A stretch of 64,000 nucleotides of DNA from Escherichia coli. GTDB lineage: Bacteria; Pseudomonadota; Gammaproteobacteria; Enterobacterales; Enterobacteriaceae. This document shows positions 58,801 through 61,800 of the stretch, one piece after another. Every line of letters begins with the position of its first letter. Positions within the stretch are counted from its first letter, which is position 1. The position numbers are program-made. The stretch lies in NCBI RefSeq assembly GCF_044647545.1, contig NZ_CP172818.1. One strand, given 5' to 3'.

Positions 58801-61800
58801 GCTTTCTGGAAGATACCGCCGAGAATGCGAATTAAGATCCCCATCACACCGATGTAGTAGAGAATACTCACCAGCGCGGTGACGAAGATAATTGCCGGTA
58901 ATACTCTGAAACCAAAGATAAATCCTGCACCATCAAACAGCGTGTCCATTTTCGGCCCGACCAGCGAACCGAAGATAAATGCGCTACCCGCGTCGCTGTA
59001 CGCCATCACTTTATGGACGCCAAAAGCGACTTTTTCAGCGACCCAACGCCCTGGCGGTAACCAAAGCATAATGCCGCCAATCACGACCTGTAACACTAAC
59101 GCCGCGCCAACGGTACGCAGGCTGATCCTCTTCTTGTTTACTGACAGCAAAAATGCAATTGCCAGCAATACCACCATTCCCAGAACACTTCTCATGACAT
59201 CCATAGTTATTATCTCTTCATGTCATTTTGGGCGACGGCTTTCTGCCCATCAGAAATCGCCGGGCCTGCATCTTGCGATACTGTCCCGGCTTGTTATCAA
59301 CACTTAATGGGTTTTGATGTAGCCGCGCACGCACTCTTCGACTAATCCCCAGAACCAGTCAGTATCAATAGTGATGCCGACTTTGGTATTGGCGGGCTTG
59401 CCAAGAACGCCCAGCTCGTCGCAGACGGTACGCCCATAGCAAGGGCCACTGTTAACATCCACTTCGACGTACATCTCCTGGGTTTTAATGCCATCTGGGT
59501 TAATCAGATAACCGATGCAGGTGGCGTCATGCACCGGGCCGCCAGCCAGGCCGTAGTTTTCGAACTGGGTTTTGAGAGTGAAGTTCATGATGTCGCTGAA
59601 CAGCTCTCCGGCAGGGCCGCCTGCCCTTTCCATTCGTGCAATCACGTCCGGGGTGCAAACGGTCTGGTTGGTGAGATCGAGGCCCATCATTACTAATGGA
59701 ACGCCGGAGGTGAACACCACACGTGCCGCTTCCGGATCAGCAAAGATGTTGAACTCGGCAGATGGCGTGAAGTTGCCAGTACCGTAAGCGCCGCCCATCA
59801 GTACAATTTCACGGATTTTCGGCAGAATTGCGGGTTGCATCCGCATTGCCACCGCGATGTTTGAAAGCGGACCAACCGGCACCAGAGTGATATCGCCATC
59901 GCTTGCCATCAGGGTATCGATGATATATTTCACCGCATGGGTGTTTTCTGCCTGACGAGTCAGCGGTTCGAATACCGGACCATCCAGCCCGGTTTCACCG
60001 TGAATATTATCGGCAACGATTTGTTGACGCATAATGGGTTGCGACATCCCCGCATAAACCGGAACATTAATCTCCAGTTTCTGGCAAACATTCAGGCCAT
60101 TAATTAATGTTTTATCGAGGGTTTGATTCCCCGCCACAATAGTGATACCTAATAAATCAATCGCCGGATGTTTCGCTGCCATCATCATTGCAATAGCATC
60201 ATCATGACCCGGATCACAATCCAGAATAATTTTTCTTTTTTCCATTGTTTATTTCCTCTGTTTCCAGTTGCGTTATTTTTTCTACAGCAAAGAAAATTCG
60301 ACCGGGCCGATGATTGAATCTTAACAACAGCGTACGTATGCTAAATATGAGAAATCTCATAGCGGATAAACATCGTGAAAGAAATCCACAATAATGATCT
60401 TAAGCAGCAATTGATGAGTGAATCCGCGTTTAAGGATTGCTTTTCAACGGATGTTTCAGCCGATACGCGGCTGTTTCATTTTTTAGCGCGTGACTACATA
60501 GTGCAGGAAGGGCAACAGCCGTCCTGGCTGTTTTACCTGACGCGAGGCCGCGCCAGGCTTTACGCCACGCTAGCTAATGGTCGCGTGTCGCTGATCGATT
60601 TCTTTGCCGCGCCCTGTTTTATTGGTGAGATTGAGTTAATCGATAAAGACCATGAACCGCGTGCGGTACAGGCTATTGAAGAGTGTTGGTGCCTTGCGCT
60701 CCCTATGAAACATTACCGTCCGCTGTTATTAAACGACACGCTATTTTTACGAAAACTTTGCGTCACCTTAAGTCATAAAAATTATCGTAATATTGTTTCT
60801 TTAACTCAGAATCAATCATTTCCGTTAGTGAATCGCCTGGCAGCATTTATATTACTCTCGCAGGAAGGTGATCTTTATCACGAAAAACATACCCAGGCGG
60901 CAGAGTATTTAGGTGTTACTTATCGTCACTTGCTATATGTGATCGCTCAACTCATTCACGACGGTTTATTAATTAAAAGTAAGAAAGGGTATTTAATTAA
61001 AAACAGAAAGCAGTTGTCAGGACTGGCGCTGGAGATGGACCCGGAGAATAAATTCTCCGGGATGATGCAGTAAAAATTAATCTGCAATAGCGCGATTGCC
61101 GGATGCAACACTTAATAAGCGCGTACATCCGGCAATGAAACTCAAGCTAAACCAATAAAGAACCCGGCAATGGTCGCGCTCATCAGGTTGGAAAGCGTTG
61201 CTGCTGCCAGCGCCCGTAAACCAAGCTGAGCGATTTCCGGTGCGCGTTTTGGCGAAATAGCCGAAAATGCCCCAACGACAACACCGATAGAACCAAAGTT
61301 AGCAAAACCACAAAGCGCAAAGGAGATAATCGCAATGGTTTTCACTTCCAGCGTGCCGCCCGTTTGCAGGTATGGGGAGAAACTCAGGTAAGCGACGAAT
61401 TCGTTAATCGCCAGTTTCTGCCCAATCAGGCTACCCGCAAGATTGGCATCACTCCAGTCCACACCCATGATCCACGCCAGCGGTGCCAGCACATAGCCGA
61501 AAATACTTTCCAGAGAGGCATTGGCGAAACCAAACCAGCCGCCGATTCCGCCGATAATGCCGTTGATCAGCGCAATAATTGCGACAAACGCCATTACTAC
61601 CGTTGCTACACCAGCGGCGATTTTCAGCCCGGTCATCGCACCGCTCGCCGCTGCTTCGATAAAGCTTTTTGGCGGCGTTTCGCTGAACGATAAATTTTCA
61701 AATGTGACCTGCGAAGGCTCGGTTGCCGGGCTAAGAATACGTGCAAACAAAATCCCGCCAGGGATCGCCATCAGCGATGCCGCTAACAGGTAGTCAATTG

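What the first reader, a model, noticed from the sequence alone, without database searches (positions are those of the whole stretch)
59222..59260. Conserved ~28-nt leader motif upstream of both paralogous transporter genes
On the top strand, gggcgacggctttctgcccatcagaaat (about 59229-59256, upstream of nupX) recurs as gggcgacggctttctgcccgtcagaaat (about 62458-62485, upstream of psuT). In the mRNA sense it could form a small hairpin (gacgg / ccgtc). Conservation of non-coding sequence between diverged paralogs suggests a shared regulator binding site or RNA element.
Basis: seen in the sequence. Interest (0 to 1): 0.5.

Follow-up and report, generated by a model that had tools for sequence, protein, structure and literature searches.

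The report
Conserved hairpin before two transporter genes
The repeated 28 bases are real and mark a small RNA stem-loop kept, with compensating base changes, just ahead of the nupX and psuT nucleoside-transporter genes in about ten enterobacterial genera; its job is untested and is probably ordinary control of messenger-RNA fate.

Summary
The 28-nt block occurs twice, at 59230-59257 and 62458-62485, with 27/28 identity and none expected by chance. All genes here are on the minus strand. Both copies lie in intercistronic spacers (rihB|nupX and psuG|psuT), not in promoter regions.

nupX and psuT are saturated at synonymous sites (52% third-position identity), so 27/28 identity is far above neutral.

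Orthologous leaders from about ten genera, for both paralogs, all carry the same element. It is a 5-6 bp G+C-rich stem (YGGGC/GCCCR) with a loop of exactly 11 nt. The five core pairs form in 95/95 cells, three pairs show compensatory changes, and all wobble pairs fit the mRNA strand only.

The element is absent from Rfam, from distant CNT transporter loci and from the rest of the E. coli genome. Within one Enterobacter genome the two copies differ by compensatory changes. So structure is selected, not a shared DNA-binding sequence.

Best reading: a clade-specific, undescribed cis-acting mRNA hairpin in the transporter leader, probably a stability or processing element. In psuT it is paired with a separate terminator-like hairpin. 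The mechanism is untested. Interest is moderate to low.

The parts
59227..59251 (-). Hairpin P1, nupX copy. mRNA sense: GAUGGGC-AGAAAGCCGUC-GCCCAAA. The paired core is 59229-59233 with 59245-59249 (UGGGC/GCCCA), and the loop is 11 nt (59234-59244).
   Evidence: Fold; covariance model hit of 34.8 bits, E 9e-5; conserved helix in alignment A1.
62455..62479 (-). Hairpin P1, psuT copy. mRNA sense: GACGGGC-AGAAAGCCGUC-GCCCGUA. Six pairs, 62456-62461 with 62473-62478 (ACGGGC/GCCCGU), and an 11-nt loop (62462-62472).
   Evidence: Fold at -11.1 kcal/mol; covariance model hit of 39.1 bits, E 9e-6.
59230..59257 (-). It comprises the AUUUCU tract (59252-59257), the 5' arm, the loop and most of the 3' arm of P1.
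62458..62485 (-). Its first base (62485) is the last A of the psuG stop codon TAA (62485-62487).
59259..59290 (-). Hairpin H0 between the rihB stop and P1 (GCCGGG...CCCGGC), followed by GAUUUCU. It looks like a weak terminator or 3'-end hairpin for rihB. Hairpins of unrelated sequence sit at this position in most of the other rihB|nupX spacers read (not in Enterobacter hormaechei).
   Evidence: Fold of the spacer, z = -2.9. Spacers of other genera were read directly, with no covariation test.
62408..62445 (-). Hairpin T in the psuT leader: AUACCAGAACCUGGCG-CUGA-CGUCGGGUUUACUGGUAU. It is an A-tract, a G+C stem and a short U-tract, i.e. terminator-like, and it ends 1 nt before the Shine-Dalgarno GAAGGGG.
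   Evidence: Folds of -24 kcal/mol alone. It is conserved in all psuT leaders and in the K. spallanzanii nupX leader, but with no compensatory change. It does not meet the strict terminator scan, having only 3 U.
57954..59204 (-). nupX (416 aa, CNT-family nucleoside transporter), the downstream gene of copy 1.
   Evidence: RefSeq annotation of identical sequence.
61142..62392 (-). psuT (416 aa, paralog of NupX at 88% aa identity), the downstream gene of copy 2.
59304..60245 (-). rihB (pyrimidine nucleosidase), the upstream cistron of copy 1.
62485..63423 (-). psuG (pseudouridine-5'-phosphate glycosidase), the upstream cistron of copy 2.
   Evidence: Pfam Indigoidine_A in orthologous loci.

Best explanation
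The 28-nt block is the E. coli form of a conserved RNA stem-loop, here called P1. It belongs to the 5' leader of the NupX/PsuT clade of nucleoside-transporter genes in Enterobacteriaceae.

P1 was duplicated together with the transporter gene. It now sits inside two different operons, between the catabolic enzyme gene (rihB or psuG) and the transporter gene.

Shown here: selection acts on the helix (5-6 G+C-rich pairs closing a loop of exactly 11 nt) on the mRNA-sense strand, and not on a particular sequence.

Inferred: P1 acts in cis on the polycistronic mRNA as a purely structural module that sets how much transporter is made relative to the upstream enzyme. The most likely mode is as a stability or processing determinant. 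After endonucleolytic cleavage in the single-stranded A/U-rich tract just 5' of it (AAUUUCU in Escherichia and Citrobacter), P1 would be the 5'-proximal hairpin of the transporter message. It would also act as a barrier insulating the two halves of the transcript.

In psuT leaders, P1 works beside a separate terminator-like hairpin (T), not through it. T probably lowers read-through into psuT.
For: 1. The element is real and non-neutral: 27/28 identity against 52% third-position identity, P = 3e-7.

2. It is present in all 20 leaders examined, from about ten genera and for both paralogs. The loop is always 11 nt, although the distance to the ATG varies from 25 to 68 nt.

3. Helix support. The five core pairs form in 95/95 cells. 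Pair 14-34 is CG 13 / UA 3 / UG 3. Pair 15-33 is GC 16 / AU 3. Pair 13-35 is AU 11 / GC 3 / GU 1. The covariation score is 0.292 against 0.183 in shuffles (0 of 500 reach it). Pairing drops to 32-53% when partners are slid.

4. All transporter genes compared are saturated at synonymous sites (0.48-0.74 third-position identity at conserved residues; 0.54 between the two E. coli paralogs). The stem has therefore been held by purifying selection.

5. Strand: 5 G.U cells and 0 A.C cells, so every wobble fits the mRNA strand only.

6. Structure, not sequence. In E. hormaechei the two copies are GACGGGC/GCCCGUC and ACAGGC/GCCUGU. In the nupX copy there, the 11-nt loop is itself self-complementary (11-bp stem, -17.2 kcal/mol), so loop bases need not be read.

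7. It travels with the transporter, not with the upstream gene. It follows two unrelated genes (rihB, psuG), and most rihB spacers already have their own 3' hairpin, H0.

8. It lies between co-directional genes 92-99 nt apart, with no sigma-70-like promoter found in the leaders.

9. RN|WUU-like tracts (GAUUU, AAUUU) lie 2-8 nt 5' of P1 in Escherichia and Citrobacter. That this is an RNase E-type site is inferred from the published consensus, recalled from memory.
Against: - No experiment or transcript-end map was available. Nothing was found in the literature on the regulation of nupX or psuT.
- The A/U tract 5' of P1 is not conserved outside Escherichia and Citrobacter.
- A plain stability hairpin would not obviously need a fixed loop length or the invariant loop G-U (columns 27-28 of A1).
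- Covariation rests on about 19 related sequences with perhaps 3-5 independent events per pair. The shuffle control does not correct for phylogeny.
- In some E. coli strains pair 5 of the nupX copy is broken (GAGGGGC...GCCCAAT).
- nupX itself is deleted in Nissle-type strains, so constraint on the nupX copy in E. coli may be relaxed.
Confidence: 0.4

Rival explanations
1. P1 is an RNA operator. A trans-acting RNA-binding protein (or sRNA) recognises the hairpin's shape, its fixed 11-nt loop and the invariant loop G-U. It thereby controls translation, decay or read-through of the transporter cistron in response to nucleoside availability.
For: The loop length is invariant at 11 nt in 20 of 20 leaders, while flanking distances vary by more than 40 nt. 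Loop positions 9-10 (G, U) and the three inner G-C pairs are invariant. The same element is kept in two operons of related function, both pyrimidine nucleoside catabolism.
Against: The remaining loop sequence is poorly conserved. In the Enterobacter nupX copy it is fully base-paired. The two copies in one genome differ strongly. No gene for a candidate RNA-binding protein co-occurs with the element in the loci read.
Confidence: 0.15
2. P1 is part of a transcription attenuator. It is a pause or auxiliary hairpin that works with the terminator-like hairpin T (psuT) or H0 (nupX) to limit transcription into the membrane-transporter gene.
For: A terminator-like hairpin with a short U-tract lies in every psuT leader and in the K. 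spallanzanii nupX leader. In Leclercia and Enterobacter it is a good intrinsic terminator (ACCCGGC-CUGUC-GCCGGGUUUU). H0 followed by AUUUCU precedes P1 in nupX leaders.
Against: No alternative pairing links P1 to T. T stays the minimum-energy structure when the 5' arm of P1 is blocked, in all 8 leaders tested. T has been deleted from most nupX leaders while P1 is kept. P1 has no U-tract and an 11-nt loop. No conserved leader peptide exists, since the AUG inside P1 is found only where pair 5 is U-A.
Confidence: 0.15
3. The inverted repeat is a DNA operator (CGGGC-N11-GCCCG) for a dimeric transcription factor such as YeiL or YeiI, controlling an internal promoter of the transporter genes.
For: The element is an inverted repeat with fixed spacing. 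yeiL is always divergently adjacent to rihB-nupX, and yeiI (HTH plus PfkB kinase) is often next to the transporter.
Against: - Half-sites change in a compensatory way, and they differ between the two copies of one genome.
- All mismatches are G.U on the mRNA strand, which is an A.C asymmetry in DNA terms.
- No promoter-like site was found in the leaders.
- The site lies between co-directional cistrons.
- No CRP/FNR-type half-sites (TGTGA or TTGAT) are seen by inspection.
- The element persists in loci that show no adjacent yeiL or no adjacent yeiI.
Confidence: 0.08
4. The E. coli 27/28 identity has no function of its own. It is a short gene-conversion tract or slow decay of a duplicated leader, and the hairpin is incidental.
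For: The E. coli paralogs share the flank ATTTCTGA and an identical loop that orthologs in other genera do not share, which suggests local homogenisation in Escherichia. nupX is dispensable in some E. coli. The stem is weakened in some strains.
Against: Conversion cannot explain retention of the helix with compensatory changes across about ten genera and both paralogs, against saturated synonymous sites. The coding regions show no conversion, with 0.54 third-position identity.
Confidence: 0.07
5. P1 plus the conserved linker (AUCAGAC / AUCAAAC...AUACC) forms a small pseudoknotted riboswitch aptamer that senses a nucleoside.
For: The architecture loosely recalls H-type pseudoknot riboswitches: a 5-bp stem, an 11-nt loop and an A-rich tail. 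The linker motif AUCA-AC is conserved. Loops ending GUU go with AAC/AAU in the linker in 3 of 3 cases (by eye).
Against: - Few unpaired positions are conserved.
- Loop-linker complementarity is inconsistent: GUC pairs with AAC or UAC in 5 leaders.
- Typical E. coli has deleted the linker in the nupX leader.
- The Enterobacter loop is self-paired.
- There is no switch with T.
- There is no Rfam hit.
Confidence: 0.03

Closest known systems
Intercistronic or 5'-proximal mRNA stability hairpins. Examples recalled from memory: the ompA 5' stem-loop, and the stabilising hairpins between malE-malF and in the pap operon.
   Same: A stand-alone G+C-rich stem-loop lies in an untranslated segment of a polycistronic mRNA, between an abundant soluble-enzyme cistron and a membrane-protein cistron. 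It has no U-tract, and selection acts on pairing rather than on sequence.
   Different: It is single-locus: two copies per genome, not a dispersed REP family. The loop length is fixed at 11 nt, with two invariant loop bases. No transcript ends have been mapped here, so the stabiliser role is inferred.
Rho-independent terminators and attenuators
   Same: G+C-rich hairpins lie between cistrons. The neighbouring hairpin T in psuT leaders has the A-tract, stem and U-tract form.
   Different: P1 itself has an 11-nt loop and no U-tract. It was not picked up by the terminator scan. There is no mutually exclusive pairing with T.
Transcription-factor operators with dyad symmetry
   Same: An inverted repeat with constant spacing (GGGC-N11-GCCC).
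   Different: Half-sites covary instead of being conserved. The mismatches are strand-asymmetric (G.U only). The site lies between co-directional genes without a detectable promoter.
Small H-type pseudoknot riboswitches (the preQ1-I class, recalled from memory)
   Same: A short stem, an 11-nt loop and an A-rich 3' tail, upstream of a transporter gene.
   Different: There is no conserved binding-pocket sequence and no supported pseudoknot. The tail is deleted in the E. coli nupX leader. There is no Rfam match.

Membership tests
Any Rfam 15 family | A covariance-model match at or near the gathering score | tested here: not met
   There is no hit on either leader at E up to 10 in window 57800-64000. 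There is none at E up to 1 in nine orthologous loci.
Rho-independent terminator | G+C-rich stem with a short loop (3-8 nt) | tested here: not met
   The P1 stem is G+C-rich, but its loop is 11 nt in all 20 leaders. It is not reported by the terminator scan.
Rho-independent terminator | A run of U immediately 3' of the stem | tested here: not met
   The sequence after P1 is AAAAUGAC (nupX) or UAUGAUCA (psuT). The separate hairpin T has GGGUUUA in E. coli and UUUU in Leclercia, Enterobacter and K. michiganensis.
REP/BIME or other dispersed repeat | Many copies per genome in unrelated intergenic regions | tested here: not met
   The median is 2 places per E. coli genome over 5,424 genomes, at E up to 10. 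The covariance model finds no further copy in 628 kb.
Structured cis-regulatory RNA (generic) | A helix maintained by compensatory substitutions across species | tested here: met
   Three pairs have changes on both sides, the core pairs form in 95/95 cells, and 0 of 500 shuffles reach the covariation score.
Structured cis-regulatory RNA (generic) | Lies in a transcribed region, on the sense strand of the regulated gene | tested here: inconclusive
   It lies between co-directional genes 92-99 nt apart, and G.U-only mismatches favour the sense strand. No transcript data were available.
Riboswitch | Highly conserved unpaired nucleotides forming a ligand pocket | tested here: not met
   Only 2 loop positions are invariant, and the Enterobacter loop is fully self-paired.
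Riboswitch | An expression platform with mutually exclusive pairing to the aptamer | tested here: not met
   T remains the minimum-energy fold when P1 is blocked, in 8 of 8 leaders. There is no conserved pairing of the 5' flank with the Shine-Dalgarno region.
Riboswitch | Binds a small-molecule ligand | not testable with these tools
   This needs in-line probing or ITC.
Transcription-factor operator | Half-site sequence conserved among sites bound by the same factor | tested here: not met
   The two sites of one E. hormaechei genome differ symmetrically (GACGGGC/GCCCGTC versus ACAGGC/GCCTGT).
Transcription-factor operator | Placed at or near a promoter | tested here: inconclusive
   No sigma-70-like site lies on the minus strand in either leader. 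The scan covers only one promoter type.
Leader-peptide attenuator | A conserved short ORF in the leader | tested here: not met
   The AUG inside P1 gives MGRKPSPKMT* in E. coli nupX only. psuT has ACG there, and the codon varies with pair 5.
RNase E processing site plus 5' stabiliser hairpin | A single-stranded A/U-rich cleavage tract next to a stable hairpin | tested here: inconclusive
   GAUUU or AAUUU lies 2-8 nt 5' of P1 in Escherichia and Citrobacter, but not in Buttiauxella, Kluyvera, Enterobacter or K. michiganensis.
RNase E processing site plus 5' stabiliser hairpin | A mapped RNase E-dependent 5' end, with half-life dependent on the hairpin | not testable with these tools
   This needs rne-ts RNA-end mapping and decay assays.

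The most novel reading that the evidence does not exclude
P1 is the recognition hairpin of a previously undescribed post-transcriptional control system specific to the NupX/PsuT nucleoside-uptake clade of Enterobacteriaceae. A trans-acting RNA-binding factor (or, less likely, a ligand acting with the conserved linker) would read the fixed-size stem-loop. It would couple transporter synthesis to the pyrimidine-nucleoside or pseudouridine supply, independently of the upstream enzyme genes.
Probability: 0.12. Interest if true: 0.6.

Novelty: new member of a known kind. Interest (0 to 1): 0.33.

Why it matters
nupX and psuT are poorly understood nucleoside transporters. I found nothing published on their regulation, and PsuT showed no transport of xanthosine, uridine or cytidine in a recent study (PMC11241209).

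A leader hairpin held by selection in both operons across Enterobacteriaceae gives a concrete, mutable handle for asking how cells set transporter levels relative to the catabolic enzymes. It could also be added to RNA-family libraries, where it is absent.

The finding does not overturn anything. Intercistronic hairpins that tune operon expression are a familiar device.

Tried and rejected
Not conserved.
- **Alternative hairpin UUUCUG/CAGAAA.** This is the minimum-energy fold of the isolated nupX 38-mer, but it pairs in only 55% of cells across species.
- **Anti-Shine-Dalgarno idea.** AUUUCU can pair with AGAGAU (nupX) or GGAAAU (psuT) in E. coli. Folds of 18 leaders show no consistent long-range pairing.
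- **Switch between P1 and the terminator-like hairpin T.** None found.
- **Loop-linker pseudoknot.** Only inconsistent 3-4-bp matches appear by eye, and it was not pursued statistically.
- **Apical extension of the stem inside the loop.** Pair 20-28 is always pairable (GU 17 / AU 2), but the next two pairs fail in 7 and 11 of 19 sequences.
- **Short ORF starting at the AUG inside P1.** Not conserved.
- **REP or dispersed repeat.** There are two copies per genome. The real REP elements lie 3' of both transporter genes and are unrelated.
- **Rfam.** No family matches.
- **Promoter in the leaders.** None found by the sigma-70 scan. Sigma-54, CRP, FNR, IHF and RutR consensus checks by eye were negative.
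- **Distant CNT transporter loci** (about 50% aa identity; Vibrio, Haemophilus, Burkholderia and others, plus a 72% Klebsiella sp. homolog). No P1.
- **Metagenome pattern scan.** Not run. Any pattern loose enough to be informative (14-16 specified bases) would return mostly chance or E. coli hits.
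Full report
**1. Observation**

The 28-mer is present at + strand 59230-59257 and, with one mismatch, at 62458-62485. There is no other copy in the window at up to 3 mismatches, and none appeared in 100 shuffles.

All relevant genes are on the minus strand: nupX 57954-59204, rihB 59304-60245, psuT 61142-62392, psuG 62485-63423 and psuK from 63411. yeiL lies on the plus strand between the two groups.

Read in the mRNA sense, the block is AUUUCUGAYGGGCAGAAAGCCGUCGCCC. It sits in the 99-nt rihB|nupX spacer, 46 nt after the stop and 25 nt before the AUG. It also sits in the 92-nt psuG|psuT spacer, starting at the last base of the psuG UAA and 65 nt before the AUG.

So it is 'upstream of both transporters', but inside two operon-like gene strings rather than in promoter regions.

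**2. More than neutral**

NupX and PsuT are 88% identical in protein and 79% in DNA, but only 52% at third codon positions. At that background, at least 27/28 identity has P = 3e-7 per window.

Outside the block, the two spacers align only around the ribosome-binding site. psuT carries about 40 extra nucleotides.

In 5,424 E. coli genomes the block occurs a median of twice per genome. It is therefore not a dispersed repeat, and RefSeq annotates nothing there.

**3. What it is**

Folding gives a hairpin whose stem is YGGGC/GCCCR. The only difference within the block (C in psuT, U in nupX) is matched by G versus A immediately 3' of the block.

I collected orthologous loci from species-representative genomes, and through protein homologs and their contigs. 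The sources were E. coli, E. albertii, three Citrobacter, Leclercia, Superficieibacter, two Buttiauxella, Kluyvera, Klebsiella michiganensis, K. spallanzanii, Enterobacter hormaechei, Entomohabitans and several metagenomic contigs.

Every leader of a transporter at least 86% identical to NupX/PsuT carries the hairpin, whether it follows rihB or psuG. The loop is exactly 11 nt in all of them, while the distance to the start codon ranges from 25 to 68 nt.

On an ungapped 19-sequence alignment (A1):
- The five core pairs form in 95/95 cells.
- Pair 14-34 is CG 13 / UA 3 / UG 3.
- Pair 15-33 is GC 16 / AU 3.
- Pair 13-35 is AU 11 / GC 3 / GU 1, with 4 unpaired.
- The covariation score exceeds all 500 shuffles.
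- Pairing collapses when partners are slid.

A covariance model of the hairpin recovers all these leaders at 24.6-40.5 bits. It finds nothing credible in 72 loci of more distant CNT transporters, nor in the rest of the window. A 72%-identical Klebsiella sp. homolog lacks the hairpin.

No Rfam family matches the window leaders or nine orthologous loci.

**4. RNA or DNA**

Three observations favour an RNA structure on the mRNA strand:
- All five non-Watson-Crick cells in the helix are G.U in the mRNA sense, and none is A.C. These probably represent only 3-4 independent events, so the argument is suggestive, not decisive.
- In E. hormaechei the two copies in one genome differ by compensatory changes (GACGGGC/GCCCGUC versus ACAGGC/GCCUGU). 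This fits selection for pairing and not for one protein's half-site.
- The element lies between co-directional cistrons with no promoter-like site.

In the Enterobacter nupX copy, the 11-nt loop is itself self-complementary, giving an 11-bp stem at -17.2 kcal/mol. This argues against sequence-specific reading of the loop and against a pseudoknot or aptamer.

**5. Context**

The hairpin belongs to the transporter's leader. It follows two unrelated upstream genes, and the homology between leaders starts at the hairpin and continues downstream. The shared downstream parts are the linker AUCAGAC/AUCAAAC...AUACC, the ribosome-binding region and the gene.

psuT leaders, and the K. spallanzanii nupX leader, have a second hairpin, T, just before the Shine-Dalgarno sequence. 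T has an A-tract, a G+C stem and 3-4 U. It is terminator-like, conserved, but without compensatory changes.

Most nupX leaders have lost T through a deletion. Most have instead a hairpin of variable sequence, H0, right after the rihB stop; in E. coli it is followed by AUUUCU.

Blocking the 5' arm of P1 does not disturb T in any of 8 leaders, so there is no P1/T switch. Folds of 18 leaders show no conserved pairing of the P1 flank with the ribosome-binding site.

**6. Why the E. coli copies are so alike**

Across genera, the loop and the 5' flank vary. Loops include AGAAAGCCGUC, AGUUUGCCGUC, AGUCAGCGGUC and GAUCCCGGGUU. Yet the two E. coli copies share both the loop and the flank AUUUCUGA.

The coding regions show no sign of conversion, with 0.54 third-position identity.

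The extra identity is therefore either a very short conversion tract in the Escherichia lineage or local constraint. For example, the A/U tract may serve as a cleavage site or as the U-tract of H0. This was not resolved.

**7. Mechanism**

Shown: there is a conserved, strand-specific, structure-selected stem-loop in the transporter leader.

Inferred: it acts in cis on the mRNA. I rank the options as follows.
- Stability/processing module, confidence 0.4. This means a 5'-proximal protective hairpin after cleavage in the A/U tract, or a barrier insulating the transporter segment from the enzyme segment.
- RNA operator for a trans-acting factor, 0.15.
- Auxiliary element of an attenuator, 0.15.
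- DNA operator for YeiL or YeiI, 0.08.
- No function beyond conversion, 0.07.
- Riboswitch, 0.03.

The fixed loop length and the invariant loop G-U are not explained by the simplest stability model. They keep the operator reading alive.

**8. Known or new**

I found nothing on the regulation of nupX, psuT, rihB or psuKG, or on any leader element, in the searchable literature. Nothing is present in Rfam either.

This is an undescribed, clade-restricted example of a familiar kind of element, an intercistronic mRNA hairpin. Interest is moderate to low unless a specific binding partner emerges.

Noticed in passing
window 62408-62445 (-): A terminator-like hairpin T (A-tract, G+C stem, UUUA) lies immediately before the psuT ribosome-binding site. 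It is conserved in all psuT leaders and in the K. spallanzanii nupX leader. It is a good intrinsic terminator in Leclercia, Enterobacter and K. michiganensis. It suggests partial termination between psuG and psuT.
   Followed up: partly
window 59259-59290 (-): Hairpin H0 lies right after the rihB stop and is followed by GAUUUCU. Hairpins of unrelated sequence occupy the same position in the rihB|nupX spacers of most other genera read. It may be a rihB terminator or 3'-end hairpin.
   Followed up: partly
window 59205-59229 (-) versus L001 2464-2500: The E. coli nupX leader is 12 nt shorter than the ancestral-type leader kept in L001 and other genera, where GCCCAUAACGGGAUCAGACCUGACAUG replaces GCCCAAAAUGACAUG. 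The short form is the norm, found in 5,035 of 5,037 E. coli genomes. It removes the conserved AUCAGAC linker and the sixth pair of P1.
   Followed up: yes
L092 (E. coli Nissle 1917) 1890-1955; L098: In Nissle 1917, strain C7 and others, nupX is deleted except for its first 66 nt, which are annotated as a partial hypothetical protein. The rihB gene and the leader with P1 remain. nupX is therefore dispensable in some lineages.
   Followed up: partly
L099, L100 (E. coli strains 2017.10.01CC, SCU-316), position about 73 of each locus: A polymorphism, U to G in the 5' arm (GAGGGGC...GCCCAAU), breaks pair 5 of the nupX hairpin in some E. coli strains.
   Followed up: no
window 57892-57940 and about 61095-61135: REP-type palindromic elements lie directly 3' of both nupX and psuT. 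There are weak naRNA4 hits at E of about 0.6. They are unrelated to the leader hairpin.
   Followed up: partly
L081, L083-L088, L091, L093-L097 (positions about 600-2400): yeiL (a cNMP-binding CRP/FNR-type regulator, 232 aa) is always divergently adjacent to rihB-nupX, forming a conserved yeiL / rihB-nupX module. The order of this module relative to psuKGT differs between genera: in Enterobacter, psuKGT follows nupX.
   Followed up: partly
window 59190-59224 and 62378-62412 (-): The translation-initiation regions are unusually conserved at the nucleotide level across genera (AAUCAUUAUGGAUAUAAUGAGAAGU). By eye, they can form small hairpins enclosing the start codon: UCAUUAU/AUAAUGA in psuT and UGACAU/AUGUCA in E. 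coli nupX.
   Followed up: no
L081 2443-2500 (Buttiauxella sp. B2); protein P0001 (463 aa): In some genomes the AUG inside P1 is in frame with the transporter gene, which gives apparent N-terminal extensions in automatic annotations. These are probably mis-called starts.
   Followed up: no
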